DNA from: an uncultured Oscillospiraceae bacterium
GTDB taxonomy: Bacteria > Bacillota > Clostridia > Oscillospirales > Oscillospiraceae
Direction: 5' to 3'
DNA: 64,000 nt
Assembly (NCBI GenBank): GCA_947626905.1
Contig: CANQUE010000003.1
Coordinates: 17,660-81,659 of the forward strand
Every line of letters begins with the position of its first letter. The stretch's first letter is position 1. The notes under the pieces are model-generated. The model saw only the letters and a program-made list of their open reading frames with translations, was not told the origin of the DNA and did not search any database. Position numbers and translations under genes: made by a program. This document shows, in pieces, positions 5,742-30,080 of the stretch.

Positions 5742-5821
5742 CGGGTTTTCGCCGATCTGCTTCCACAACAGCACAACAAAATAGCGATGTTTAAGCCGGT
5801 CACACCGGTTTGAATATACAT

Positions 5822-5912
5822 GGAGCGGTATCGAAGTGGACACAACGAGCTCGACTCGAAATCGAGTTGCCGGTGAAACGGCACGTGGGTTCGAATCCCA
5901 CCCGCTCCGCCA
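5822..5912 (+). tRNA. tRNA-Ser (anticodon CGA), class II with long variable arm, CCA encoded
   Basis: Acceptor GGAGCGG/CCGCTCC. Anticodon stem CTCGA/TCGAG with loop CTCGAAA. Variable arm GCCG-GTGAAA-CGGC. T arm GTGGG-TTCGAAT-CCCAC. Discriminator G, then CCA. Confidence 0.9.
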
Positions 5913-5923
5913 GTTTTAAAAAA

Positions 5924-5960
5924 CCCACTTCAAACCCCATCTGAAGTGGGTTTTGCTCTT
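5924..5960 (+). terminator. rho-independent terminator after the tRNA
   Basis: CCCACTTCA-N9-TGAAGTGGG followed by a TTTTGCTCTTTT run. Confidence 0.7.
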
Positions 5961-5971
5961 TTATGAACAAA

Positions 5972-6003
5972 TCCAATCATAATCAGGTCCAATCATAATC
6001 AGG
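5972..6003 (+). repeat. perfect tandem 16-bp repeat x2
   Basis: TCCAATCATAATCAGG TCCAATCATAATCAGG. Confidence 0.9.
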
Positions 6004-6011
6004 GGTATACT

Positions 6012-6131
6012 ATGACTATCGAAGAAAACGAGCACACTGAATTCTGGACAAAACTTATCCATCGGCTGCAGGAAACGCAAAATGACCTCAACAACCTCAG
6101 TCCGGCCACACGGCAGAGGGTCCAATCGTAA
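6012..6131 (+). CDS. possible 39-aa small protein
   Basis: ATG 6012 preceded by AGGGG. Translation MTIEENEHTEFWTKLIHRLQETQNDLNNLSPATRQRVQS. No recognisable family and too short to judge coding potential. Confidence 0.25.
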   Translation: MTIEENEHTEFWTKLIHRLQETQNDLNNLSPATRQRVQS

Positions 6132-6207
6132 GGGCAGGCTGTTTTGAGGGCCTGTACCTTAGCCGACGCGATTGCGATGATCCAACGCTTTAGCCAGCAA
6201 TAAAACT

Positions 6208-6321
6208 CCATATTCACCCAGAAGACCTGAGAACACACGCTTTCAGGTCTTCTTTTTATCCACTCACAGCAGCAGAACATCCTATAATGGACACAAACTT
6301 AATAAGGAGGATGACCCCATG
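6208..6321 (+). repeat. integrase leader (terminator-like hairpin, TATAAT box, RBS), copy A of a ~113-bp direct repeat
   Basis: CCATATTCACCCAGAAGACCTGA...TCAGGTCTTCTTTTT...CCTATAATGGACACAAACTTAATAAGGAGGATGACCCCATGAG aligns with only a few mismatches to 14149-14260. Confidence 0.85.
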
Positions 6322-7500
6322 AGCATTCAACCGCGTCAAGTAAAGAACAAGAAGGATGAAAACCACGTCCCCACCCACAAGCCCGGCACCGTATACGACG
6401 TCTTCATCTCATACAAAGATGCCAACGGCAACAGGCACACCTATGGCAAACGGGGCTTTGCCACCAAAAGTCTTGCTATGCAGCATGAGGCAGAGATGTT
6501 CGTCACATTGAGCCGCAGCGGCTCCCACAAGTATTACAATGCGACCCTTGGTGAGTATTTGCAGGACTGGCTGGCAGAATATGCCTACAATTATCTGGCC
6601 CCATCTACATATCAGGGGTATCTAAGTTGCTTCCGGCAGCACATCATGCCGTCCATCGGATCGGTCAAGTTGCGCAAGCTGGCAGCCTCTGATATAGATA
6701 AGGTCTGTACGGAGATGATGCGCCAAGGTTATGCTGTTTCCTCTCAAAGGCACGCATACCGTGTGTTGAGCGTTTCCCTGGAACACGCGAGAAAGCACGG
6801 GTATATCGATGTGAACCCCGTGCGAAACAGCTTTGCAAGATTCAAAATCACGAAGAGGACAGATGAGCCATATTCGATCTCCGAAGTACGGAAACTCCTG
6901 GACGTCGTTTCCGATCCACAGATGCATTTTATCGTCATGCTGGCTGCACTATACGGTCTGCGCCGCGGCGAGATATATGGTCTTCAGATACAGGACATCG
7001 ATTTGGAAAACCATTGCTTCACCGTGTCACAGCAGCTGGCTTGCTGTGCGGAACGAAAGCGTACCGGCAGCATACTCGCCCCGCTCAAGACAAGTACCTC
7101 CTATCGCACATTGCCTATCACCGACCTTACCTATCCCTGTTTCGCCAAGCAGGTAGAAATGCGCGGCGGGAGCAACGCCGTGGGCCTCCTTATAACCCAG
7201 CCGGATGGACAGCCATATAGCGTTTCTCACTTATCGGAGCACTTTCCTCTACTGCTTGAGTCGCTGCAATTTCGGAAGATCCGCTTTCATGACCTGCGCC
7301 GGTCTGCCGCCACCAATATGCATGAGCTTACCGGCGATTATCTGACCATTGGGGCTATCCTCGGCCACTCCTTCAAAGGCATCACCGTTGCACTGGACAT
7401 CCCCGTTTGCGTCCCCGAGATCACCGGCCAGTATATAACCCTCAAGGATTCCCGAAAGCAGTATGTTCTGGAAATGTATCACAAGGCAGTATATAGCTGA
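6319..7500 (+). CDS. int: tyrosine integrase (phage-integrase family) with N-terminal AP2-like arm-binding domain
   Basis: 393 aa. Catalytic set visible: LRRGE (Arg), LKTSTSYRTLP (Lys), FHDLRRS (His-x-x-Arg), LGHS (His), TGQYIT (Tyr). The N-terminal segment GTVYDVFISYKDANGNRHTYGKRGFATK is typical of Tn916/ICE-type Int. AAGGAGG RBS. Confidence 0.9.
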   Translation: MSIQPRQVKNKKDENHVPTHKPGTVYDVFISYKDANGNRHTYGKRGFATKSLAMQHEAEMFVTLSRSGSHKYYNATLGEYLQDWLAEYAYNYLAPSTYQGYLSCFRQHIMPSIGSVKLRKLAASDIDKVCTEMMRQGYAVSSQRHAYRVLSVSLEHARKHGYIDVNPVRNSFARFKITKRTDEPYSISEVRKLLDVVSDPQMHFIVMLAALYGLRRGEIYGLQIQDIDLENHCFTVSQQLACCAERKRTGSILAPLKTSTSYRTLPITDLTYPCFAKQVEMRGGSNAVGLLITQPDGQPYSVSHLSEHFPLLLESLQFRKIRFHDLRRSAATNMHELTGDYLTIGAILGHSFKGITVALDIPVCVPEITGQYITLKDSRKQYVLEMYHKAVYS

Positions 7501-7546
7501 CACCCATTCGGTCCCATACGACGAATGCCCAAATTTAACTTTAATA

Positions 7547-7593
7547 TTGACATTTAACATCTGTTAAGTTAATATAGTATTAACCAAAGTTAA
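7547..7593 (+). promoter_or_regulatory. promoter with two palindromic operator-like sites upstream of the AbiE-like pair
   Basis: TTGACA (7547-7552), 17 nt, TAATAT (7570-7575). TTAAC-N4-GTTAA occurs at 7554-7567 (inside the spacer) and again at 7580-7593, centres 26 bp apart. Confidence 0.6.
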
Positions 7594-7606
7594 ATGGGGC
7601 GCTGTC

Positions 7607-8569
7607 ATGGATTATATCACGCAGACATTGGGCATTCCTGTCCACCGCAGCAAATGGGAACGAGCAGCGGAGCTTCCTTTTTACCTGACCAATTCCTATT
7701 CTCTTGAAAGCGCGGAATTGGGGGATCGCCACGCCCTCTTCCTGACGCCTGTTGGTAAATTGGGAACAATCGGCACCATCAAAAAGCACATCGCCCGGCT
7801 GGAGACTATCTGTCCCTGGCCGGTCGTGCTGGAACTGCCCGCCCTCAGCCGTCAGCGGAAGAGTTCCCTCATCGCGGAAAGGATCCCCTTTGTGGTGCCC
7901 GGAAAGCAGCTCTATCTTCCTTTTCTTGGCGCCGTCCTCTCCGAAAGAAATGACGTTGAAGCTGCCCCAGAGCCGATAGATAAACTGCTTCCTTCCGCGC
8001 AGATGCTGCTTTTCGCATTTATCCTTGGCGGCAATAAACTGATCTTTCTCAGCGATATGACAAAGCGATTCCACTGCGCCGCGATGACCATGTCCCGCGC
8101 CGCGCAGCAGCTTGTCCAGGCGGGGCTGTTGGACCGGAGTACACAAGGAGTGCAGATCCTTCTCAGCTCAGACTTAACGCCATGGGCGCTATATCAGACC
8201 GCTCTTCCCCATCTGATATCCCCGGTGCGAAAGACTGTGTACATTGACCGTGCCGAACTTCCGAAAGATGTGTTTTCCGCCGGACTGAGCGCTCTTTCCG
8301 AACAGGCGTTTATCAATCCCCCATTTGTGGAGTCCTGGGGAACTGTCGCGCAAGAGAAATCGTTCACTACGAAGAGCATGCTTTTGGTAGACACCACAAA
8401 GCAATGTGCCGTCGAGTTTTGGAAATACGATCCCAGGCTGGTCAGCGGAAGCCTATACGTTGACCCCCTCTCTCTCGCTGCCAGTTTGAGCGATACAAGT
8501 GATGAGCGCGTAGAACAGTCTGTAGATACTCTTCTCAGGGAGGCATTGCAGAATGGTCACCGGATTTGA
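7607..8569 (+). CDS. putative winged-helix regulator; candidate AbiEi-like antitoxin by position (function uncertain)
   Basis: 320-aa ORF whose stop overlaps the start of the nucleotidyltransferase gene by 17 nt. The central segment LSDMTKRFHCAAMTMSRAAQQLVQAGLLDR looks like wHTH. CDS confidence is high; the functional call is weak. Confidence 0.5.
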   Translation: MDYITQTLGIPVHRSKWERAAELPFYLTNSYSLESAELGDRHALFLTPVGKLGTIGTIKKHIARLETICPWPVVLELPALSRQRKSSLIAERIPFVVPGKQLYLPFLGAVLSERNDVEAAPEPIDKLLPSAQMLLFAFILGGNKLIFLSDMTKRFHCAAMTMSRAAQQLVQAGLLDRSTQGVQILLSSDLTPWALYQTALPHLISPVRKTVYIDRAELPKDVFSAGLSALSEQAFINPPFVESWGTVAQEKSFTTKSMLLVDTTKQCAVEFWKYDPRLVSGSLYVDPLSLAASLSDTSDERVEQSVDTLLREALQNGHRI

Positions 8570-9308
8570 GAGTTTTAAAGAATGGTTCGCTGGCTACAGC
8601 GACCAATTTGCCATCATCGGCGGCACGGCATGCGACCTTCTGATGAGCGAGGAAGGCGAAGACTTCCGGGCAACCAAAGATATCGATATGGTCCTCATCG
8701 TGGAGAGCCTTACGCCGGAATTTGGACTGCATTTCTGGCAATACGTCAAAGCCGCCGATTATAAGCATCGGCGCAGCAGCAACGGACAGCCGCAGTATTA
8801 CCGCTTTACCCACCCCCGCGGCCGGGAGTACCCCTATATGATCGAGCTGTTCAGCCGCAAGCCGGACGCTATTTCTCTGCCGGAGGATGCCGTGCTGACC
8901 CCAATGCCGCTGGATGATGACCTGTCCAGTTTGTCCGCCATTTTGCTGGATGACGATTATTATCAGCTTCTTCTCACCGGCAAACACGTTGTGGATGGCG
9001 TCCCCATTGTAGGCGCGGAACAACTCATCCTGTTCAAAGCAAAAGCATGGCTCGATCTCACCCGTCGTAGGAATGCAGGCGAAGCCATAGATTCCCGTGA
9101 TATCCGCAAGCACAAAAACGACGTCTTCCGCTTATCGCTTCTTCTGACGCTAACATCAAAACTCGCCGTTCCGCAAAGCATCTACCAGGATCTTCAGCGC
9201 TTCCTTGCTGCGATGGAGACTGAGTCAATCGATCTGAAGCATCTGGGGATACATATGGATAAGGACACGATTCTTAACCTGTTGAAAAATACATATTCAC
9301 AAGAATGA
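8553..9308 (+). CDS. nucleotidyltransferase, AbiEii/AbiGii (DUF1814)-like toxin candidate
   Basis: 251 aa. The N-terminal IIGGTACDLL...RATKDIDMVLIV matches the GG(S/T)A...DxD NTase signature. C-terminal RDIRKHKNDVFRL. GGGAGG RBS. Assigned from motif memory only. Confidence 0.6.
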   Translation: MVTGFESFKEWFAGYSDQFAIIGGTACDLLMSEEGEDFRATKDIDMVLIVESLTPEFGLHFWQYVKAADYKHRRSSNGQPQYYRFTHPRGREYPYMIELFSRKPDAISLPEDAVLTPMPLDDDLSSLSAILLDDDYYQLLLTGKHVVDGVPIVGAEQLILFKAKAWLDLTRRRNAGEAIDSRDIRKHKNDVFRLSLLLTLTSKLAVPQSIYQDLQRFLAAMETESIDLKHLGIHMDKDTILNLLKNTYSQE

Positions 9309-9367
9309 CCGACAAACCAATTATATTCTAGATTTATAAATCACATTTTAGAAGAAAGGGACATCAA

Positions 9368-12300
9368 ATGAGTCTAGAGGCAGGCGGACGAGCAGACAAA
9401 GGGGGAAATAGATATGAGAACCGCTTTTTAGCTAAACTTTGGATAGATCTAATCCGGGAGCGTCTTACCTCTATAGAAGTAGAACCCCTTGGTGACGAAG
9501 GCCGGGGAGTGGAATTCATCACAACCACTGCAGATGGTAAGCGCGAGTACTATCAATGCAAATCATCCAATGGTATAGAAAATTACTGGCGCCCCAGCGA
9601 TTTGGGTGCCTACTCTGTTTTCCAAATTGCAAAAATACATCTTCAAAGCGGAAGCGACTGTATGTATCACTTTGTTTCACCGCTCCCTTATGATGAATTG
9701 GATAGTTTATGCGACCGTGCTCGAACAGCTTCCGACCTTGACAACTTCCTAAGTTTTCAGTTGTCCAATGACAAATTAAGGAATTGGTGGAACAAATGTA
9801 AACAGTATTTTTGTGAAGATGACGCGCAAACACTATCTCTTCTTTCACGGTGTCACTTTGATCAAATTCCCGATAATCACGAGCGAATATATGAATTAGA
9901 AACGCTAATCGAACTTTTGTTCGTTAAAGATAATTCAGGAACTCCCGCTTCCATTCGCATAGAATTAGAAGCATTCGCAAATGATGAGAAACGCTGGGGC
10001 AGACCAATCAACGCCGGAGAAGTATTGGCCTATCTGGAGGAGCACGGATTCCAGCAGCGCCTTCTTGTCCACGACGAGCGAACTCTCACCCAAATCAAAA
10101 CTCTCAATCAGGCGTATGTTGAAAGCTTTCACCCTATTGGCTCCTCGCTCTTTCACCGCTGCGAGGCTGACAAAATAATGGAATGCATTCACGACGGTAA
10201 GTCAGCCTTGATTCTGGGAAAAGCCGGTTCAGGAAAAAGCGGCTGTATCCATGAAGTAATTGAACAACTTGAAGCCGAGGGGATCACTCACTTGGTCCTT
10301 CCTCTTGATAAGCGTCAGCCAACCGGATTTGCTGATCATTACGGGAGATCCCTTGGACTGTTATGCTCCCCTGTGCTGTGTCTACATAGTCTTTCAGGCG
10401 GACGCCCATGTGTTTTGATCTTCGATCAACTGGATGCCTTACACTGGACAAACAGTTCTACCTCTACATCTCTAAGCATCTGCAAAGAAATGATCGATCA
10501 GGTGGAGCATTTGAATCACCTGGAAAACGGAAAGATCCGTTGTATTTTTGTCGTTCGATCATTTGACTATCAAACTGACCCGACCATACATAGGATGTTT
10601 GAACCTACTGATGGTTCCCGGTCAAGTTGGGAAAAAATCGAAGTCGATCTTCTCTCGTCTGAGGATGTTCACAAGCTAATTGGAGACTCCTATTATTCAC
10701 TATCCCCTAGACTTCATGCCTTACTTCAAACGCCCTCCAATCTCTACATCTGGGAAAAACTGTCCCCCAGTTCCAAACCCTTGATCGAAAACCTCCGACA
10801 GTTAATGGAAACTTGGTGGTCACAGGTAAGAAACCGTTGTATTGAAAATAGTCTGAACGCGCAGAGAATTGATGACTGCCGCAATCGGATCGTATCTATA
10901 ATGCAACAACGAGAAGTGTTGTCTCTCCCTGACATGCTGTTTCAAGACGAACATAATGAAATAGATATCCTAAGATCATACGGCGTTTTACAAAAGGCCG
11001 GAAATAGCATTTCCTTTGTCCACCAAAGCCTGTTCGATTTCTTTTCTGTCAAATCATATATTGACAGCATTTATGACAAATCCATGCATCTTCCGGATGT
11101 GTTCTGTGATACGGACAGGCAGACGCCAGACGTTCGCTATCAGTTCCTGATGCTGTTACAGTATTTGGTCGATGCTGATACTGCGACTTTTATATCCGAG
11201 GCAAAGTATAGTTTGGCATCTTCAAATATCCGTTACTATTTCAAATGTTGTATTTTTGAGGTTATTGGTCAGAAAGCATCTCTTGCTGAAGTATTTTGGC
11301 CAACAATCGACGCGTATTATAATGATCCAGAATGGAACCAGTATATTGTCCACATGGTTCTCAGCAGTCACTCAGAATTTGTCCAGCTATTTTGCCGATC
11401 TCATCCTGAACATGAATGGCATGAAGAAACTGGATGTAATATACTTCGTTCTGTTATCTGTCAAGAACCGAACCTCGCACTGGACATCATATATAATTAT
11501 GGCCCCGATAAATTTGATGATAATACTCTATATTCGATCCTTTGCTCTATATCGCCTGATGATTCTGAAAAAGCCGCTGTTTTACGACTTAAGCTATTAG
11601 AGAAAAATCATCTTTTATTTCTTAATAATTTTGAGTTGGAAAAAACAATAGAGTCAGGATCTATCTGGGCCGTCCCCATGCTTAGACTTATAATCGAAAT
11701 GGACCCATCTGTTAGACAAAACGTGCGGTTTATCACGCTTGAGCATACAAACTTATTTGTAGAGAAGCATGCTAGGCAGATAGTCGGCCAGTTGCTTGAC
11801 CCTCTCATTCAGACAGTTACATCTGAAACTGCACAAAACAAATATAGTACTGCCTGGAACACAAATTATGATGATGCCACCATTGAACAAGCTCTTGTTC
11901 ATATTGTTCAGGCTGCACTTTCGCGGGTCGCATCAAACAACCCTGTCGAATTTCTCCAATACCTAAACCACCAAAGCTCTAATTCGTCTATAGAGAGATA
12001 TCTCCGGATCCACGCGGCAGAAAACTTGCCTACCGACTATTCTGATCAGGTAATAATATGGCTTATTTCCGATTTTGACAATAGGGCTTTTGAGAGATTT
12101 AGCAGTGAATCGACTTCGCTATCCTGCTGCCAACGCATAATCAGACGATTCTCTCCATATTGTAGCGTCGATACCTTCAAGCAACTAGAAAAACTTCTAT
12201 GCCAGTGGTCTCCTCCTGCTGATCATATGCGTGCTATACTCCAGTGGCGAATCGATTCTCTGCATAAAGCAGGCAATAGGGATTGCTATATTGCTTTCTG

Positions 12301-13843
12301 GGGCAATCTTCAAAACATCCTATTGCCGGCGCTTGATCCGACGAGAATCTCAAGTTACACAATGCGTTTAATCGCTGTTCTAGATCGTCGGTTCACAGAT
12401 GGAAATCATATGTTTGACCTTTCTCCGCAAATTGAGTCTCATGTAGTTACTTCGCCCGTTGACGCTCATGTCGATCGTCTAAGTGATAGAAGCTGGCTTA
12501 AACTCATTGCCGACATGAGTTTCTCCACCCCACATATAAGGAAACATGATTGGCACACTGGTACAGAGTCTTCACCTCAAATGTTTTCTCAGAGTCTGGC
12601 CTATGCAGCAAAAAAAGAGCCTGTTCGCTTTGCCAATTTGGCGTTGCTCTTTCCAGATGGAACTGCAGAGTCCTTTATTGATGCGATACTTACCGGCCTT
12701 CAATCATCAGATGTCCCCCTTGACTTGACGTGTGACATCCTGCGGCGGTTCTGTCAGAACCCATCCCGAAATATCGCCATTTCATATGCACATGTTCTAG
12801 AGCACCGCTCTCAGGAAGCATGGCCAATCGATATTCTGAATGGATTAATTGATATTGCTGCGCATCATGCCGATCCACTTCCAAAGGAGTTGCCTATATA
12901 TAAAATTGATGAAGAGACCGTAGACTGTGGCACTTTACGTCAGTGCGCAATCAACTGTGCAAGAGGCTATGCGTTATTCGCAATCAGTGACATTTTGTGG
13001 GAACACCCGGAACTGTTTGAAACGTTTCGCGAAGTTACTGCATCTGCCGTTGAAGATGAAAATCCCGCCGTTCTGTTTTCTGCCATGCGTTGCCTTGCCC
13101 CTTGGTACAATGTTGATAGAGAATTCTCAAAGGCTCTATTCCATCGGCTGTTGGAACGGGATATTCGCGTTTTGGGTGCCTATGACGCATGGCAGATCCT
13201 ATCCCGGTGTTATAGCGATAATCCATCATACTACTGTGACAAATTGCTGTCGGCGTTCCGCTCTGAAATCAAAGACCTGAGTGAACATGCACTGGAGATG
13301 ATGACAATAATCGCAACTACAAATAGTCAAATGCTCGATGTTTTGCTTTCGCTGCACTTAAGCAAACAGCAGGCACAGGTTGTTTGCCGTCAATCCGTCC
13401 GTTGCTTCAAATACGATGACAGGCGTATGCAAAGCCGAGTCATTTTATGCCATATCATAGATATATGTGATGATCTGCCGCAACTGGATCAACTATTTTA
13501 TCAGAAACTCATCGATCCTCAAAGAGATAAAGAATTCCTGCTCAAGCTGGTTTCCCGTGGCAATATGAGGCGCATGGCATATTATTTTATAAAATATCTG
13601 AAGGAATACGATGGGGATATTGTCGCCTATACAGACGTAATACTCGAATTCGTAAAAGCACTATTTCTTCCAGGAACGACATACTATGACTTTGATGAGC
13701 TTATCATATGCATCGCCCGGTTGTTTCATCAGGGAAAGGAAGATATACAGATTCGCAGGGTATGCCTCGATATGTGGGATATCATATATCATAACCGTCC
13801 TTGGGCAATCAAGCCATTTGCAGAATTGATTGATCATCTATAA
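9368..13843 (+). CDS. 1491-aa PD-(D/E)xK-like nuclease / P-loop NTPase / long helical-repeat protein (STAND/Avs-like defence candidate)
   Basis: N-terminus GGRADKGGNRYENRF...IEVEPLGDEGRGVEF...YYQCK. Walker A GKAGSGKS (aa 284-291, nt 10217-10240). Walker B VLIFDQLD (aa 349-356, nt 10412-10435). About 1100 aa of helical, repeat-like C-terminus without TM segments. AT-rich codon usage unlike the host. Confidence 0.8.
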   Translation: MSLEAGGRADKGGNRYENRFLAKLWIDLIRERLTSIEVEPLGDEGRGVEFITTTADGKREYYQCKSSNGIENYWRPSDLGAYSVFQIAKIHLQSGSDCMYHFVSPLPYDELDSLCDRARTASDLDNFLSFQLSNDKLRNWWNKCKQYFCEDDAQTLSLLSRCHFDQIPDNHERIYELETLIELLFVKDNSGTPASIRIELEAFANDEKRWGRPINAGEVLAYLEEHGFQQRLLVHDERTLTQIKTLNQAYVESFHPIGSSLFHRCEADKIMECIHDGKSALILGKAGSGKSGCIHEVIEQLEAEGITHLVLPLDKRQPTGFADHYGRSLGLLCSPVLCLHSLSGGRPCVLIFDQLDALHWTNSSTSTSLSICKEMIDQVEHLNHLENGKIRCIFVVRSFDYQTDPTIHRMFEPTDGSRSSWEKIEVDLLSSEDVHKLIGDSYYSLSPRLHALLQTPSNLYIWEKLSPSSKPLIENLRQLMETWWSQVRNRCIENSLNAQRIDDCRNRIVSIMQQREVLSLPDMLFQDEHNEIDILRSYGVLQKAGNSISFVHQSLFDFFSVKSYIDSIYDKSMHLPDVFCDTDRQTPDVRYQFLMLLQYLVDADTATFISEAKYSLASSNIRYYFKCCIFEVIGQKASLAEVFWPTIDAYYNDPEWNQYIVHMVLSSHSEFVQLFCRSHPEHEWHEETGCNILRSVICQEPNLALDIIYNYGPDKFDDNTLYSILCSISPDDSEKAAVLRLKLLEKNHLLFLNNFELEKTIESGSIWAVPMLRLIIEMDPSVRQNVRFITLEHTNLFVEKHARQIVGQLLDPLIQTVTSETAQNKYSTAWNTNYDDATIEQALVHIVQAALSRVASNNPVEFLQYLNHQSSNSSIERYLRIHAAENLPTDYSDQVIIWLISDFDNRAFERFSSESTSLSCCQRIIRRFSPYCSVDTFKQLEKLLCQWSPPADHMRAILQWRIDSLHKAGNRDCYIAFWGNLQNILLPALDPTRISSYTMRLIAVLDRRFTDGNHMFDLSPQIESHVVTSPVDAHVDRLSDRSWLKLIADMSFSTPHIRKHDWHTGTESSPQMFSQSLAYAAKKEPVRFANLALLFPDGTAESFIDAILTGLQSSDVPLDLTCDILRRFCQNPSRNIAISYAHVLEHRSQEAWPIDILNGLIDIAAHHADPLPKELPIYKIDEETVDCGTLRQCAINCARGYALFAISDILWEHPELFETFREVTASAVEDENPAVLFSAMRCLAPWYNVDREFSKALFHRLLERDIRVLGAYDAWQILSRCYSDNPSYYCDKLLSAFRSEIKDLSEHALEMMTIIATTNSQMLDVLLSLHLSKQQAQVVCRQSVRCFKYDDRRMQSRVILCHIIDICDDLPQLDQLFYQKLIDPQRDKEFLLKLVSRGNMRRMAYYFIKYLKEYDGDIVAYTDVILEFVKALFLPGTTYYDFDELIICIARLFHQGKEDIQIRRVCLDMWDIIYHNRPWAIKPFAELIDHL

Positions 13844-25267: not shown

Positions 25268-26113
25268 CTACGCGCCCCAGCCGACGGAGAGCTGTTCCTC
25301 GTCCAGCTGACGCTCCAGGGCCTGCTCCACCAGCAGGGCCACGTTGTCCTCTATGGCCTTCCGGCGGGCCAGGTACAGCCGCCGCAGGCACCGGGGATTT
25401 CCCTTCTCCACCGGCACCTTCGCCAGCACGCACAGATCCCGGATAGAGCTGGTCACATAGGTCCGGTCCATGGGCGCCCTGTCCTTCGTTAAAAACAGGG
25501 GTCCCTCCTGTATCCCGTTGCGCCGGGCGTAGTCCAAAAGCTCCCGGCACAGGCATCGGGGTAGCCGGACGTTCCTCCTGCCTCCCCCCTCGCCGATCAC
25601 CGCCTGGCCCGCCTGGGCGGCCTGCACGGTGATCTTCGTCAGCTCCTGTACCGGCAGATCCGCGCTGGCGAACAGCTTGATCAGCAGATAGCTCCTCTCC
25701 CTCTCCAAAAGCCGGGCCGTCTGCAGCAGGTGGATATACTCATTTCTCGTCAGCTCCGGGGCCAGCTTCTTCTCCGCCTCCAGCCCGTCCAGCAGCTGAT
25801 ACTCCCGGTGGCCCATATAGGCCACATAGGAATTGGCGGAGGCGATGTATACGTTCACCGTCCGGGGCGCGTAGCCGGCGTTGAGCAGCGCCTGCCGGTA
25901 TTTGATCAGCGTGCCCCTGCGGACATACCGCTCCTCCGGCAGCAGTTCGATCAGCTTTCGCAGGTTCCGCCGGTACCGTTCCACCGTATCCGGCGTGCGC
26001 CCTCTCCGGGTCAGATCCTCCAGGAACCCCTGGACGCTGTCCTCCGTTATGGGGACTGCCGCCCCCCGCTGGGATGTCTTCGGGGGCAGCGCTGTCGTTT
26101 CGAGCGTAACCAT
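25268..26113 (-). CDS. tyrosine-recombinase-like protein with degenerate active site
   Basis: 281 aa from ATG 26113. The N-terminal SAM-like core-binding domain is present (FLEDLTRRGRTPDTVERYRRNLRKL...TVNVYIASANSYVAY). Box I Arg is absent (ASADLPVQEL), H-x-x-R is replaced by RCLRR, and there is no GH...Y tail. Confidence 0.7.
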   Translation of the reverse strand: MVTLETTALPPKTSQRGAAVPITEDSVQGFLEDLTRRGRTPDTVERYRRNLRKLIELLPEERYVRRGTLIKYRQALLNAGYAPRTVNVYIASANSYVAYMGHREYQLLDGLEAEKKLAPELTRNEYIHLLQTARLLERERSYLLIKLFASADLPVQELTKITVQAAQAGQAVIGEGGGRRNVRLPRCLCRELLDYARRNGIQEGPLFLTKDRAPMDRTYVTSSIRDLCVLAKVPVEKGNPRCLRRLYLARRKAIEDNVALLVEQALERQLDEEQLSVGWGA

Positions 26114-26135: not shown

Positions 26136-26170
26136 TTCAAAAAGGGAGCAGGGGAAATCCCTGCTCCCTT
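26136..26170 (-). terminator. rho-independent terminator of the surface protein gene
   Basis: Hairpin AAGGGAGCAGGG-GAAA-TCCCTGCTCCCTT, followed on the minus strand by TTTTTGAAAAC. Confidence 0.75.
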
Positions 26171-26202: not shown

Positions 26203-28893
26203 TCACTGCTTGACGTAGTTCTTGAAGTCGCCCCAACCGTCGGTGTAGGTGCACTTGCCGCCATGGCCGTTGGTCCGAGTCTCGAACCAGCCGATGCTGC
26301 CGGCGCCATAGCCGTTGTCGTCGATGATCTTCTGCCAGCCCTTGAGCATCATGCCGATGCAGTTATCGGACCGGTTGGACTCCTGCAGGTAGTACCAGCC
26401 GTTGCCCCAGGAGGCGTCGGTGATGTAGGTCAGGCCGGTATCCATGACGCCGGAGGCGCTCATGTGGTACCACAGGCCACGGGTGGACATGACCCACTGG
26501 TTCTTGACCATCTGGCCGTTCTTGTAATAGTAGAAGTCACCGTTGGCGGCCTGTACCCAGCCGTCCTTCACGGTCTTCAGCGCGCCGATGGCGGCCAGCA
26601 GAGCGGAGGCGGCGGCGTCGATCTTGGACTGCGCGGCGTTCTCCTTCTCCAGGATGGCCTCGGCGGCCACCAGGGCCTCCTTCACAGCGGCCACGGCAGA
26701 GGGATCATAGTTGCCGGTATCCAGATCGGAGGGAACAGCAGCGATGGCCTTCTCCAGAGCGGTCTTGTCGGCCTCCTTCACCACCAGAGCCTCAATGGCA
26801 TCCAGGATGGCCTTAGCAGCGCCGGCCGCGTCGCCGGAGCCAGCCTTCACGATGGCCTCGCCGGCCTTGACGGCATCCTGCAGCTCAGTCCAGCCCTCGG
26901 AATAGTCGTCCTCGCTCAGAGCCTTCGCGTCGGCGATGGCAGCCTCCAGGGCGGTCATATCGGTGGGCTCCTCCAGGTTCTTCAGCGCAGCCACAAGATC
27001 CTTGCTCATAGTGTCCACTGCCGTCCGGTTGGCGTTGGTGTTGGGGGTCTTGTCGGCGGCGGCTACCAGAGGCTCGGCATACTTGGTCATCAGCCGGCCC
27101 AGGATCTCCTGATAGTAGCTGGTGGTCTTACCGGCAGCTTTTTTGGCGATCAGGGTCTCATAATCGCCGGCGGCCGCGATCACGGCCTCCAGGTTGTTAT
27201 AGCCGGTGGGGTTATCCGTGAGCACGGTCAGCTTGGCGGCCAGGTCCTTGGCCTTGGCCAGCGCCTCGCTGTGGTCGGTGCCTTTATACTCGCTGACAGC
27301 GCCGATCTTAGCGGTCACGGTGCCGCGGCTGACCTCGGTGGCCTGCGCGCCGCCCTGAGGCACTTCCTTGACGAACAGCTCGAAGGTGTACTCGCCCACG
27401 GCCAGATCCGCGGCGGCGATGCCCGTCACGTTCACGGACTTGGTGGTGACACCGGTCATCTCCTTGACTTCCTTGCCGCTGGCGTCGGTCACCACGATCC
27501 GGGCGCTGGTGTAACGGGCACTATCGTAGTCGGCCTGCGCCTTGTCCAGAGTGACGACGAACTGGTCAGTGCTCGTCGTGTCCCACTTGGCTTCCACCAG
27601 CTTGGGGCCGTTGTAGTCGCCCACGGTGTAGTCCAGCGTGGCAACGACCGTTTCCTTGCCCTCGCTGTCAACCGTGCTCAGGGTGATGGTGACCACGTCT
27701 CCGATCTTAAACTTGGTCTCGCCGTCGCCGGACTTTTTGATGTCGTCATACTTGAAGGTATGCGCGGCGGCGGTAGTGGCGGCGTCAGCGCCGATGCCCT
27801 TGGAGGTGAGGCTGGAGTAAGTAGCCTCGGCCTTGCCGCCGGCCAGGACGGCCGTCACCACATACTTGTTGTCGTCAGCCTGTTCGGCGGTCTTGCCGTC
27901 GGTGATGGTGACGGTCAGCTGGGTGTAACCACTGTTCATCGCTACGGGGCCGATCTTCAGGCCGGCCACGTTCTCTGCCAGGCCCTTGACCTTCTCGGCG
28001 ATGTTCTTCAGCGCCTGGTTGACTTGCTTCAGCGTGGTGGTGTCTTTCAGTCCGTAGGGGCCGTTCCGGTCCACATAGCCGTTGGCGGTGGACAGCTCGG
28101 AGCTCAGAGCGGAAACGCTCGTGGAGCCGTACTTGCCGCTGTCGATCAGGGCCTGGGCGTCGGCGATGGCCTCGGTCAGGGCATCGGCGTCGTCCTTATC
28201 GGGGGCCTTCGCGGCAGTTTCTTCCTTGGCCAGGACCGCGAAAGCCTCGACCAGGTCGGCGATGGCCTGGTGGGTGCCGTTCTTGCCCTTCTTGGTCAGG
28301 GCTTCCTTCTGCGCGATAAGATCGGCGGCCTTGGCCAGATACTCGGGCTGATACTCCAGCTTGGCGTCATCCGTGGAGGGATCGGCCGGAGTCGTCGCCA
28401 GGCCGGCCAGAGTGGTCTCCACATCGTACTGCGTGGCCTTGGCGGTGAACTTCTCCGCCTTCGCGCCCTCGCCGATGTAAGGAGCCAGAGCCTGGGTCTT
28501 CGGCGTGATCTCAGAATCCTTCACCTTGGTGGTGGTGTCTTCGATCTTGGTGAGCAGGTCCTTGGCCTCGTTCAGCGCCTTCTCAAAGGCGGTGAGCTCC
28601 GTCTCGGGGCTGGTGTTGGCCCCGGTGTCGTAAGTATAGACGCCGCTCTTCAGGTTGGCCTCGATGGCCTCGGCCTCGGCGACGGCCGCCTTCAGATCTT
28701 CGACAGCCTTCTGGGCGGTCTCGTCCTCGGGCTTCTCCAGCGCGATGGGCGCGGGTTCTTCCACCGCAATGACTTCCGGCGCGTCCTCGGAGTCGGTCAC
28801 AGGCTCTGCCGCTTCAGCCGCGAGGGCCGGGACGCACAGAGACAGAACCATGACCAGCGCCAGAAGCAAGCTCAGTACACGTTTTCTTGTCAT
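26203..28893 (-). CDS. 896-aa secreted surface protein: signal peptide, long Ala/Lys/Glu/Thr-rich helical region, C-terminal cell-wall-binding (CW_binding_1-type) repeats
   Basis: Signal peptide MTRKRVLSLLLALVMVLSLCVPALAAEA. C-terminus GWVQAANGDFYYYKNGQMVKNQWV...GLWYHMSASGVMDTG...GWYYLQESN...KGWQKIIDDNG... AGGAGG RBS. Confidence 0.9.
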   Translation of the reverse strand: MTRKRVLSLLLALVMVLSLCVPALAAEAAEPVTDSEDAPEVIAVEEPAPIALEKPEDETAQKAVEDLKAAVAEAEAIEANLKSGVYTYDTGANTSPETELTAFEKALNEAKDLLTKIEDTTTKVKDSEITPKTQALAPYIGEGAKAEKFTAKATQYDVETTLAGLATTPADPSTDDAKLEYQPEYLAKAADLIAQKEALTKKGKNGTHQAIADLVEAFAVLAKEETAAKAPDKDDADALTEAIADAQALIDSGKYGSTSVSALSSELSTANGYVDRNGPYGLKDTTTLKQVNQALKNIAEKVKGLAENVAGLKIGPVAMNSGYTQLTVTITDGKTAEQADDNKYVVTAVLAGGKAEATYSSLTSKGIGADAATTAAAHTFKYDDIKKSGDGETKFKIGDVVTITLSTVDSEGKETVVATLDYTVGDYNGPKLVEAKWDTTSTDQFVVTLDKAQADYDSARYTSARIVVTDASGKEVKEMTGVTTKSVNVTGIAAADLAVGEYTFELFVKEVPQGGAQATEVSRGTVTAKIGAVSEYKGTDHSEALAKAKDLAAKLTVLTDNPTGYNNLEAVIAAAGDYETLIAKKAAGKTTSYYQEILGRLMTKYAEPLVAAADKTPNTNANRTAVDTMSKDLVAALKNLEEPTDMTALEAAIADAKALSEDDYSEGWTELQDAVKAGEAIVKAGSGDAAGAAKAILDAIEALVVKEADKTALEKAIAAVPSDLDTGNYDPSAVAAVKEALVAAEAILEKENAAQSKIDAAASALLAAIGALKTVKDGWVQAANGDFYYYKNGQMVKNQWVMSTRGLWYHMSASGVMDTGLTYITDASWGNGWYYLQESNRSDNCIGMMLKGWQKIIDDNGYGAGSIGWFETRTNGHGGKCTYTDGWGDFKNYVKQ

Positions 28894-28953
28894 TGTCTCT
28901 TTTCCTCCTAATAATAAATGGTAGAATCAGGTGTATGCCGGACCCCCGCAATT

Positions 28954-28977
28954 ACTACAGACTATACATTCTGTGGT
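28954..28977. repeat. recombinase-type site L (8-bp arm / 8-bp centre / 8-bp arm)
   Basis: ACTACAGA CTATACAT TCTGTGGT. The arms are mutually inverted half-sites. Confidence 0.7.
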
Positions 28978-29205
28978 GAAAACGGGCCAATCATCCTTAC
29001 ATACCCAGCTTTACGCTGTCAAGTATACTCTCCCTTGCTAAAAAAAGCAATAGAAATTTCAAAAAAGTTAAAATTCTTATTCCGGCGGAGCGGATCATGG
29101 GTCCCCGGCGGGGGCCGAATGAAACGGCGTCACGGTCTCCGCCGGCGGCGGGACCTCAAAAGCGGGCTTTCCGGCCGCCTTTTCCTCCGGCGGCCGGGCC
29201 GGAAT

Positions 29206-29229
29206 ACTACAGAATGTATATTCTGTGGT
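29206..29229. repeat. recombinase-type site R, central spacer inverted relative to site L
   Basis: ACTACAGA ATGTATAT TCTGTGGT. The reverse complement of the centre (ATATACAT) matches the site L centre in 7/8 positions, against 5/8 in direct orientation. The site ends 6 nt from the recombinase stop codon. Confidence 0.7.
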
Positions 29230-29234
29230 ATTTT

Positions 29235-30080
29235 TCATATCCTGACCAATCCCAGCTTGTCCATCTGCCGGCGCTGCTCTTCGCCGCTGTGCATGGTATA
29301 GATCCGGGTCGTTTCGATGCTGGAGTGGCCCAGGATGTCCGCCAAGCGGACGATGTCCTTGTTTTCCCTGTAATACGTGGCGGCGAACAGGTGCCGGAAG
29401 TTGTGGGGGAACACCTTCGCCGGGTCCACCCCGGCCTTTTCGGCCAGGCGCTTATACATCTTCCAGATGTTGCTCCGATTCAGGGGCTTGCCGCTGCGGG
29501 TGACGAAGACCGGCCCGGAGGTGATGTTCCGCCGCCGGCAGTAATCCTCCAGCTTTTTCCGGAGCAGATCGGGAATTAGTACCTCCCGGGTCTTGCCTTT
29601 GCAGGCGATCACGCTCCGGCCGGCCCTGACCCCCTCCACCGTGACCATCTCGTACTCGCTGACCCGCACCCCCGTGCCGCCGCCGGTCTCCAGCAGCATC
29701 ACCATGCGCTCGTCCCCGCTGTCCCGGGCGGTCTGCACCAGTTTGCGGAACTCCTTTTCCGTCAGCTCCCGATCCGGGTCCCGGAAGCTCCGGCGCTGGA
29801 CCCGCAGGGTCCGCAGCCGCCACTGCCCATACCCGCAAAACTGGAGGAACGTATTCACCGCCACCACCGCCCCGTTCACCGTGCCGGGCGCCAGGCCTCT
29901 CTCCCGCAGCTCCGCCTTGAACGCCAGCAGCGCGTCCTTGTCCCTCACCTCCCCGCCCGCGTGATCGAGCAGCATCCCCAGGATGCGGGAATACTTCCTC
30001 TTGGTGGCGGGCGCGTACTCCCGCTGGTCCATCTCCCGCCGGAAAAGCTCCAGCGCCTGTTTGTCCATTGTCAGCCTCAT
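29235..30080 (-). CDS. site-specific tyrosine recombinase (Xer/phage-integrase family), catalytically complete
   Basis: 281 aa with GVRVSE (Arg), KGKTREV (Lys), HNFRHLF (H-x-x-R), LGHSSIETTRIY (His, Tyr). GGGAGGG RBS. Confidence 0.9.
   Translation of the reverse strand: MRLTMDKQALELFRREMDQREYAPATKRKYSRILGMLLDHAGGEVRDKDALLAFKAELRERGLAPGTVNGAVVAVNTFLQFCGYGQWRLRTLRVQRRSFRDPDRELTEKEFRKLVQTARDSGDERMVMLLETGGGTGVRVSEYEMVTVEGVRAGRSVIACKGKTREVLIPDLLRKKLEDYCRRRNITSGPVFVTRSGKPLNRSNIWKMYKRLAEKAGVDPAKVFPHNFRHLFAATYYRENKDIVRLADILGHSSIETTRIYTMHSGEEQRRQMDKLGLVRI

What the first reader, a model, noticed from the sequence alone, without database searches (positions are those of the whole stretch)
28894..29234. 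Candidate invertible promoter switch between a tyrosine recombinase and a cell-wall-binding surface protein gene
Seen in the sequence:
- Two 24-bp sites, 28954-28977 (ACTACAGA|CTATACAT|TCTGTGGT) and 29206-29229 (ACTACAGA|ATGTATAT|TCTGTGGT), bracket 228 bp of the leader of the 896-aa surface protein gene.
- Each site has two mutually inverted 8-bp half-sites (AC[T/C]ACAGA) around an 8-bp centre.
- The asymmetric centres match 7/8 as reverse complements but only 5/8 as direct copies. The sites are therefore in inverted orientation.
- Site R ends 6 nt from the stop codon of a catalytically complete tyrosine recombinase (29235-30080).
- The bracketed segment contains an AT-rich core with minus-strand promoter-like boxes TTGCTT (29050-29045), 17 nt, TATACT (29027-22), and an adjacent TTGACA (29022-17). 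These currently point toward the surface protein gene.
- It also contains a GC-rich hairpin plus T run on the opposite strand (about 29162-29188). After inversion this would face the gene as a terminator.

Established knowledge: tyrosine-recombinase-driven inversion of promoter or leader segments gives ON/OFF phase variation of surface proteins. Examples are the E. coli fim switch with FimB/FimE and the C. difficile cwpV switch with RecV.

Inference: this is an ON-oriented phase-variable switch.
Basis: partly seen in the sequence, partly recalled or inferred. Interest (0 to 1): 0.7.

Follow-up and report, generated by a model that had tools for sequence, protein, structure and literature searches.

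The report
Invertible promoter switch, caught in both orientations
This is a real flip-flop DNA switch: a 244-bp promoter segment next to its own recombinase gene occurs in both orientations in otherwise identical gut-bacterial DNA, so a large surface protein is turned on or off; the kind of switch is well known.

Summary
Two quasi-palindromic 24-bp sites (28954-28977, 29206-29229) lie in inverted orientation, against 0.01 such matches expected per window.

Eight independent metagenome contigs encode the identical recombinase. Three match the window exactly. Five are the exact in-silico inversion of 28970-29213, with 0 mismatches over 501 nt. SNP markers in the arms place the crossover in the 7-bp core TATACAT.

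Six related Oscillospiraceae-type lineages keep the layout recombinase, site, about 230-250 nt, site, RBS, surface-protein gene. They occur in either orientation. Their site centres change together in both partner sites.

In the window it points at the surface gene, so the window is ON.

The recombinase is Xer-like and catalytically complete. It is not a FimB/FimE-family member.

Two further features emerged. The recombinase-proximal site plus a T-run looks like a terminator for transcripts leaving the switch in the OFF state. A conserved, catalytically dead recombinase paralogue lies downstream in the same unit.

Verdict: a new member of a known kind, probably the Clostridia inverton-invertase pairing already catalogued by read mapping.

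The parts
29235..30080 (-). Tyrosine recombinase gene (281 aa), Xer-like, catalytically complete; the presumed invertase of the adjacent switch
   Evidence: PF00589, E 2e-25. R138, K160/162, H225, R228, H251 and Y260 are invariant in alignment A1. NCBIfam XerA/XerD/XerC-like hits fall below the equivalog cutoffs. Best PDB match is 4a8e, XerC-like.
29206..29229 (.). Site R, the recombinase-proximal recombination site: ACTACAGA|ATGTATAT|TCTGTGGT
   Evidence: The inner arm is exchanged in the inverted contigs. The site is conserved in L009, L010, L091 and L093-L097.
28954..28977 (.). Site L, the gene-proximal recombination site: ACTACAGA|CTATACAT|TCTGTGGT
28970..29213 (.). The DNA that actually inverts: both inner arms plus the 228-nt interior. 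Strand exchange occurs within the shared 7-bp core TATACAT of the two centres (28962-28969 and 29214-29221).
   Evidence: In-silico inversion of 28970-29213 reproduces L001, L002, L006, L007 and L008 with 0 mismatches over 501 nt. L003-L005 equal the window. The arm SNP (T/C at arm position 3) moves with the segment. The centre SNP next to the outer arm stays in place.
29022..29050 (-). Promoter P1: -35 TTGCTT (29050-29045), 17-nt spacer, -10 TATACT (29027-29022). It points at the surface-protein gene in the window.
   Evidence: Sequence. Conserved as TTGCTT-17-TATAAT in L009, L010, L091, L093, L095 and L096 once all are brought to one orientation. Not listed by the generic scan because it scores 8/12.
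29051..29079 (-). A/T-rich block upstream of the -35 (…AACTTTTTTGAAATTTCTA), conserved and UP-element-like
   Evidence: Conserved columns. The UP-element function is an inference.
29004..29014 (-). Conserved block GTAAAGCTGGG, 8-18 nt downstream of the -10: the likely transcription start and first bases of the leader, inside the invertible segment
29206..29239 (+). Site R hairpin followed by ATTTTTCATA: terminator-like on the strand that P1 would transcribe after inversion (towards the 3' end of the recombinase gene)
   Evidence: Flagged as terminator-like in the inverted contig L001 and in L009, L010, L091, L093 and L096. Not flagged in the window's own orientation. The fold gives a 10-bp stem followed by UAUUUUUCAU. 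An A-run between the stop codon and the proximal site is common in this subfamily.
28904..28909 (-). Ribosome-binding site AGGAGG of the surface-protein gene, in the fixed leader
   Evidence: Conserved as TAGGAGGA in all relatives.
26203..28893 (-). Controlled gene: 896-aa secreted or surface protein (signal-peptide-like N-terminus, FIVAR domain, weak choline-binding-type C-terminal repeats)
   Evidence: Homologous N-termini occur downstream of the switch in L009 and L010.
26139..26170 (-). Strong intrinsic terminator after the surface-protein gene (13-bp stem plus U5), 25 nt before the next start codon
   Evidence: z = -4.9; sequence. The pattern scan did not list it.
25268..26113 (-). Catalytically inactive recombinase paralogue (281 aa), a conserved companion of this kind of switch
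   Evidence: 29% identity to the recombinase, E 2e-26. A conserved family lacks R138, K160, H225, H251 and Y260. Syntenic in L010 and L093-L098, and present in 12 of 80 metagenome loci.

Best explanation
This is a promoter-inversion phase-variation switch (an inverton).

Mechanism. The Xer-like tyrosine recombinase encoded at 29235-30080 binds the two quasi-palindromic sites, which lie in inverted orientation. It exchanges strands within their shared 7-bp core (TATACAT) and so flips the 244 bp between them. The segment carries a sigma-70-type promoter (TTGCTT-17-TATACT) with an A/T-rich upstream block.

ON state (the window). The promoter fires through site L and a leader of about 120 nt into the 896-aa surface-protein gene.

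OFF state. The promoter faces the 3' end of the recombinase gene. Its transcripts probably stop at the site-R hairpin plus T-run.

Shown: the sites, the natural inversion with exact break points, conservation of the sites, promoter and gene order, and an intact recombinase active site.

Inferred: that this recombinase does the flipping, that P1 is the active promoter, the ON/OFF assignment, and the terminator role of site R.
For: (1) The site pair is far above chance.

(2) Eight contigs from other samples encode the identical recombinase. Three equal the window. Five equal the exact in-silico inversion of 28970-29213, with 0 mismatches over 501 nt. L008 has 0 and L006 has 1 mismatch outside the switch and both are flipped. 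L003 is identical to the window over 5.5 kb.

(3) Arm and centre SNP markers behave as expected for a crossover inside the centre.

(4) Relatives with 58-77% recombinase identity keep recombinase, site, about 230-250 nt, site, RBS and surface-protein gene. L009 has the window orientation. L010, L091 and L093-L097 are flipped.

(5) The centres co-vary between partner sites: TATACAT here and TCTACAT in L009/L010. In 45 of 80 more distant loci the N4-6 core differs between loci but is always reverse-complementary within a pair.

(6) The promoter, its upstream A/T block and the block just downstream are, besides a short GC-rich block (GCGGCCC) and the sites themselves, the only conserved parts of the interior. 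Near-consensus promoters sit at the equivalent position in distant family members.

(7) The catalytic residues R-K-H-R-H-Y are invariant.

(8) A second family member also shows both orientations: L066 against L023/L042.
Against: There are no transcript, reporter or read-level data, so promoter activity and ON/OFF are inferred from sequence.

P1's -35 hexamer matches consensus at only 3 of 6 positions, and the generic scan did not list it. The scan instead listed TTGGCC-18-TATAGT across site L (28990-28961). That candidate points the same way but is not conserved.

A role for an unlinked recombinase cannot be excluded.

Read-through from the recombinase gene could give basal expression in the OFF state, because no terminator was detected on the sense strand in either orientation.

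The contigs come from different samples. They show polymorphism between populations, not switching rates within a clone.
Confidence: 0.85

Rival explanations
1. A cwpV-type switch. Transcription starts outside the segment (for example from the recombinase gene's promoter), and the invertible segment only provides a terminator in one orientation.
For: The recombinase gene is co-oriented and directly upstream. GC-rich hairpins exist in the distal half of the segment. In one relative, L093, the flipped orientation places a strong sense-strand terminator (13 pairs plus TTTTTCTTTT) before the surface gene.
Against: No terminator-like site is found on the sense strand of this locus in either orientation. 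The distal half of the segment is not conserved, whereas the promoter is. L096 and L010 lack such a terminator. In cwpV the inverted region contains no promoter (PMC2784873), unlike here.
Confidence: 0.07
2. The two orientations are an assembly artefact, or the two sites are ends or resolution sites of a mobile element (dif/IMEX-like) rather than a regulatory switch.
For: The recombinase is Xer-like. Each site has the dif-like plan of two inverted arms around a short centre. Inverted repeats can confuse assemblers.
Against: The repeats are only 24-28 bp, which I take to be shorter than the k-mers and reads typically used in such assemblies (my assumption; assembly parameters were not checked). 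The inner-arm SNPs move exactly as a real crossover predicts. Both orientations recur in eight independent assemblies and in different species. No contig lacks the segment. The pair is always inverted, never direct. It always lies between the recombinase gene and a co-oriented downstream gene.
Confidence: 0.03
3. Inversion is real but is carried out by another recombinase encoded elsewhere, as with RecV in C. difficile. The adjacent gene would then be incidental, or would serve another site.
For: In C. difficile one unlinked recombinase serves several switches (PMC2784873, PMC5386303). Catalysis was not tested here.
Against: In 45 of 80 distant relatives by a strict criterion, and in at least 8 more by looser scans, a site pair starts within a few to about 70 nt of the stop codon of this recombinase family. 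Arm sequences change with the recombinase clade: ACCACAGAAT, ACCACATAAT, GACAAAAT, ACGGAAT. The window holds no other active family member.
Confidence: 0.05

Closest known systems
E. coli type 1 fimbrial switch fimS with FimB/FimE
   Same: A promoter is carried on a short invertible segment flanked by inverted repeats. The tyrosine recombinase gene lies directly upstream and co-oriented with the controlled surface-structure gene. The result is ON/OFF phase variation (established knowledge).
   Different: The recombinase is not of the FimB/FimE family: NCBIfam invertase models score 24.7 and 21 bits against cutoffs of 221 and 222. There is one recombinase here, not two. The sites are 24-bp Xer-type sites with arms on both sides of the centre, rather than 9-bp repeats. 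No IHF or Lrp sites were examined.
C. difficile cwpV switch with RecV (PMC2784873)
   Same: The organism class is Clostridia. Inverted repeats flank about 200 bp upstream of a large cell-surface protein gene. A tyrosine recombinase gives ON/OFF expression.
   Different: In cwpV the promoter lies upstream of the inverted region, and OFF is explained by terminator formation. Here the conserved promoter is inside the segment and no such terminator is found. RecV is encoded elsewhere and serves several switches, whereas here the recombinase abuts its switch. Sequence similarity to RecV was not tested.
Clostridia 'inverton group 139' linked to 'invertase group 35' in the hCom2 gut community (PMC11892184)
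   Same: These are read-supported invertons, 32 of 33 of them from Clostridia, nearly all with a tyrosine recombinase gene nearby. One, in Intestinimonas butyriciproducens, has repeats separated by 228 bp as judged from its coordinates. That is the same spacing as here.
   Different: The repeat motifs and recombinase sequences of that study were not available to me, so identity of the families is unproven. That study does not, in the text I read, describe the site anatomy, the crossover core, the terminator-like proximal site or the inactive paralogue.
Xer recombinases acting at dif (XerC/XerD, XerA, XerH)
   Same: These are the closest sequence relatives: XerA model 140.9 bits and PDB 4a8e, 5hxy and 1a0p. 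The site plan is the same: two inverted arms around a 6-8-bp centre where strands are exchanged.
   Different: The scores fall below every Xer equivalog cutoff. Here there are two sites in inverted orientation about 250 bp apart beside the gene, giving inversion rather than dimer resolution at a single chromosomal site.

Membership tests
Recombinase-driven invertible promoter (inverton) | A pair of recombination sites in inverted orientation flanking a short segment | tested here: met
   The centre is 7/8 reverse-complementary, with an exact 6-bp core TATACA.
Recombinase-driven invertible promoter (inverton) | Both orientations exist in natural DNA, with break points in the repeats | tested here: met
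   Three contigs match the window and five are its exact inversion, with 0 mismatches over 501 nt. The contigs are near-isogenic.
Recombinase-driven invertible promoter (inverton) | A promoter lies inside the segment and faces the controlled gene in one orientation | tested here: inconclusive
   A conserved TTGCTT-17-TATA(A/C)T element sits in all six related lineages and faces the gene in the window. Activity was not measured, and the generic scan did not list it.
Recombinase-driven invertible promoter (inverton) | A cognate site-specific recombinase with an intact active site | tested here: met
   PF00589. R138, K160/162, H225, R228, H251 and Y260 are invariant. The gene abuts the switch across the family.
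Recombinase-driven invertible promoter (inverton) | Orientation-dependent ON/OFF expression of the downstream gene, and recombinase-dependent switching | not testable with these tools
   This needs RNA or reporter data and genetics.
FimB/FimE-type tyrosine DNA invertases | Protein matches the family models NF007370 / NF007371 above their cutoffs | tested here: not met
   24.7 and 21 bits against cutoffs of 221 and 222.
Xer recombinases (XerC, XerD, XerA, XerS equivalogs) | Protein matches an equivalog model above its cutoff | tested here: not met
   XerA 140.9 against 220, XerD 101.9 against 329.6, XerC 98.6 against 335, XerS 65.9 against 267. It is a relative, not an equivalog.
cwpV-type switch (C. 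difficile) | The promoter lies outside the inverted region, and an intrinsic terminator forms in the OFF transcript | tested here: not met
   The conserved promoter is inside. There is no sense-strand terminator in the flipped form. The definition is taken from PMC2784873.
cwpV-type switch (C. difficile) | The recombinase is RecV or an orthologue | not tested
   No RecV sequence was available in the accessible collections.
Inverton group 139 / invertase group 35 (PMC11892184) | Shared inverted-repeat motif and recombinase cluster | not testable with these tools
   The motif and sequences are not in the held text or supplements. Only taxon, adjacency and the 228-bp spacing agree.

The most novel reading that the evidence does not exclude
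The switch may be more than a bare promoter flip. It could be a three-part unit with built-in insulation and feedback.

(a) The recombinase-proximal recombination site would double as an intrinsic terminator. It would stop OFF-state promoter transcripts before they run antisense into the recombinase gene.

(b) A conserved, catalytically dead recombinase paralogue would be made by read-through of the phase-variable transcript. It would bind the same or sister sites without cutting, and so lock or bias the switch, or silence sister switches. Such a directionality or exclusivity factor has not, to my knowledge, been described for tyrosine-recombinase invertons.
Probability: 0.25. Interest if true: 0.7.

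Novelty: new member of a known kind. Interest (0 to 1): 0.45.

Why it matters
It gives a sequence-level, population-verified example of phase variation in an uncultured Oscillospiraceae-type gut bacterium. Such switches have so far been catalogued in this group mostly by read mapping, without anatomy.

The work defines several things for a recombinase family with thousands of members in gut metagenomes:
- the site plan (palindromic arms, an AAT-N4-ATT core, and a crossover within 7 bp);
- the conserved promoter;
- the ON and OFF forms.

These definitions would let such switches be called from sequence alone, and the surface proteins, glycan loci and other genes they control be listed.

The inactive paralogue and the terminator-like site are cheap, testable leads on how a single-recombinase switch might be insulated or biased.

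Tried and rejected
- Rfam search of the leader and switch (E up to 1) and of the whole window: nothing in the switch, only a tRNA at 5822-5909. A riboswitch-type leader is therefore not supported.

- The generic promoter scan listed TTGGCC-18-TATAGT across site L. I rejected it as the main promoter because its -35 hexamer is not conserved in relatives.

- A 281-aa ORF at 847-1692 looked like a second copy of the recombinase by length. It is unrelated.

- Organism naming failed. The cluster look-up returned no names, and the exact-protein look-ups returned only ENA or Logan metagenome contigs. The nearest species representatives are rabbit-gut MAGs titled 'uncultured Oscillospiraceae bacterium'.

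- I tried to obtain the repeat motif of the published inverton group 139 from the paper's supplements. It is not held there.

- A literature search for inactive recombinase paralogues in phase-variable loci found nothing relevant.

- The terminator scan missed the clear hairpin at 26139-26170. A fold confirmed it.

Full report
**Observation**

Site L is 28954-28977 (ACTACAGA|CTATACAT|TCTGTGGT). Site R is 29206-29229 (ACTACAGA|ATGTATAT|TCTGTGGT). The degenerate pattern ACYACAGA-N8-TCTGTRGT, allowing two mismatches, hits only these two places in 64 kb. Shuffles give a mean of 0.01 hits.

Each site is a near-palindrome, so over its full length the pair matches equally well as direct or as inverted repeats (21/24 either way). 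Only the asymmetric centre gives a direction: 7/8 as reverse complement, with an exact 6-bp core TATACA. It needed independent proof.

**Proof of inversion**

A look-up of contigs encoding exactly the same 281-aa recombinase returned eight contigs from other metagenome samples.
- Over a 501-nt stretch spanning the switch, L003, L004 and L005 are identical to the window.
- L001, L002, L006, L007 and L008 are identical to an in-silico inversion of 28970-29213, with 0 mismatches.
- Outside the switch, L008 has 0 and L006 has 1 mismatch to the window, and L003 is identical over 5.5 kb. Near-isogenic DNA therefore differs only by the flip.

Two natural markers locate the exchange. The T/C difference at arm position 3 travels with the inner arms. 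The A/C difference at the first centre base, next to the outer arm, stays put. The crossover therefore lies within the 7-bp TATACAT, as expected for a tyrosine recombinase.

The repeats are only 24-28 bp, and I take them to be shorter than typical assembly k-mers (not checked for these assemblies). The arm markers also move as predicted. An assembly artefact is therefore very unlikely.

**Relatives**

Both keep recombinase, site, about 230 nt, site, RBS and a large protein with the same signal-peptide-like N-terminus. L009 has the window orientation and L010 is flipped.

Their centres have changed to TCTACAT in both partner sites. This covariation keeps the overlap identical between partners.

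Further members at 58-61% identity (L091, L093-L097) have the same layout and are all flipped.

**The wider family**

The recombinase family is large: 7161 proteins at E ≤ 1e-20 among the candidates scored. Of 80 metagenome loci at 43-53% identity:
- 45 have an inverted pair of palindromic sites by a strict test, starting mostly within about 15 nt of the recombinase stop codon and 160-350 nt apart;
- at least 8 more have such a pair by looser scans.

The general site is arm…AAT-N4-ATT…arm. The N4-6 core differs from locus to locus but is always reverse-complementary within a pair. A second member shows both orientations: L066 against L023/L042, 95% identical when flipped.

Downstream genes are diverse and typical of phase-variable loci. 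They include signal-peptide proteins with FIVAR, BspA-type LRR, Flg_new, SLH or VWA domains, a Wzz-type protein, DUF4379 proteins and recombinase-like proteins.

**Which orientation is ON**

I aligned seven switches from six lineages in one common orientation. Apart from the sites and one short GC-rich block (GCGGCCC), the only conserved interior blocks are:
- an A/T-rich stretch (…AGTTTTTTTGAAA…);
- CTCTTGCTTTTTT;
- TATAAT exactly 17 nt after TTGCTT (TATACT in the window);
- ACGTAAAGTTGGGCTC just downstream.

The generic scan missed it because the -35 hexamer matches only 3 of 6 positions. The scan's own candidate across site L is not conserved.

Near-consensus promoters (TTGACA-17-TATAAT) sit at the equivalent position, 50-100 nt from one end, in distant family members. 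In most assemblies they face the recombinase.

In the window the promoter faces the surface-protein gene, so the window is in the ON form. This rests on sequence and conservation, not on transcripts.

**Terminators**

The stable fold is a different 9-bp stem without a U-run in either orientation. The scan finds no sense-strand terminator in either form. One relative (L093) does have a strong sense-strand terminator inside its flipped segment, but this is not conserved.

A different feature is conserved. The recombinase-proximal site followed by a T-run (window 29206-29239, + strand: site R then ATTTTTCATA) is flagged as terminator-like in L001, L009, L010, L091, L093 and L096. It was not flagged in the window's own orientation. 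It folds as a 10-11-bp stem followed by a U-run.

This is the strand that the promoter transcribes after inversion. I infer that OFF-state transcripts stop before entering the recombinase gene antisense. In the ON leader the site-L hairpin is weaker and has no U-run.

**The recombinase**

It is PF00589 with an invariant R-K-H-R-H-Y set. Its closest models are Xer-type, all below the equivalog cutoffs. The FimB/FimE invertase models score about 10% of their cutoffs. The best solved relative is the XerC-like protein 4a8e. It works like FimB/FimE or RecV but is not a FimB/FimE-family member. Similarity to RecV could not be tested.

**A companion gene**

Downstream of the surface-protein gene lies a 281-aa paralogue (25268-26113, minus strand), 29% identical to the recombinase. 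It belongs to a conserved family of at least 491 proteins, many at 47-73% identity. Every aligned member lacks the equivalents of R138, K160, H225, H251 and the nucleophile Y260. A conserved acidic tail replaces the C-terminus.

The gene order recombinase, switch, surface protein, paralogue recurs in L010 and L093-L097. In the isolate genome AP025583.1 the paralogue is the first gene after the switch, ahead of a glycan-synthesis operon (L098). It is also the first gene after the switch in 12 of 80 metagenome loci.

In the window a strong terminator (26139-26170) ends 25 nt before the paralogue's start codon, and no promoter was found there. The paralogue is therefore probably made at a low level by read-through of the phase-variable transcript. 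Its function is unknown. A non-catalytic site binder that biases or locks the switch is a testable idea, not a finding.

**Comparison with known systems, and novelty**

Promoter inversion by a tyrosine recombinase is textbook biology (fim). A switch before a clostridial cell-wall protein is known (cwpV, PMC2784873), although that one works by a terminator with the promoter outside the segment.

A 2025 survey of a defined gut community reports a Clostridia inverton group (139) that nearly always has a tyrosine recombinase gene nearby. It includes an Intestinimonas inverton with 228 bp between its repeats (PMC11892184). That is very probably the same kind, but I could not obtain its motifs to test this.

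The finding is therefore a well-verified new member of a known kind. Interest is moderate. It is raised somewhat by the site-as-terminator arrangement and by the conserved inactive paralogue, neither of which I found described.

Noticed in passing
window 25268-26113 (-); also L010 4605-5114, L093 7001-7846, L096 7001-7846, L098 7001-7822: A conserved, catalytically dead paralogue of the recombinase. It lacks the equivalents of R138, K160, H225, H251 and Y260 and has a conserved acidic C-terminal tail. It always lies downstream of the switch and is co-oriented with it. In some loci it is the first gene after the switch.
   Followed up: yes
window 26139-26170 (-): A strong intrinsic terminator (13-bp stem plus U5) lies between the surface-protein gene and the paralogue, only 25 nt before the paralogue's ATG. 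The pattern scan missed it.
   Followed up: partly
window 29206-29239 (+); L001 3875-3852, L093 3175-3148, L096 3510-3483, L091 3870-3841, L010 1164-1141, L009 4886-4861: The recombinase-proximal recombination site followed by a T-run is scored as terminator-like on the strand leaving the switch towards the recombinase gene. This holds in six relatives or variants, but not in the window's own orientation.
   Followed up: partly
L098 (AP025583.1, Oscillospiraceae bacterium CE91St41) 5821-13807: In a cultured isolate genome, a sister recombinase and a 335-nt intergenic region with inverted sites precede the inactive paralogue and a sugar-nucleotide / glycosyltransferase / ABC-transporter operon. 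This suggests phase-variable glycan synthesis.
   Followed up: partly
L066 2154-2437 versus L023 3332-3620 and L042 1591-1878: A distant family member (about 46% recombinase identity) is also present in both orientations in different metagenomes.
   Followed up: yes
It is absent from the window, L096 and L010.
   Followed up: partly
L004, L005 (surface-protein gene region): These two window-orientation contigs show about 220 ungapped mismatches outside the switch and an 895-aa rather than 896-aa product. The likely cause is an indel or allelic variation in the surface-protein gene.
   Followed up: no
L088 1008-1871 (-) and 2315-3298 (+): Two active family recombinase genes lie back to back on one contig, which hints at several such switches per genome.
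   Followed up: no
window 5822-5909 (+): A tRNA gene is the only Rfam match in the window.
   Followed up: no
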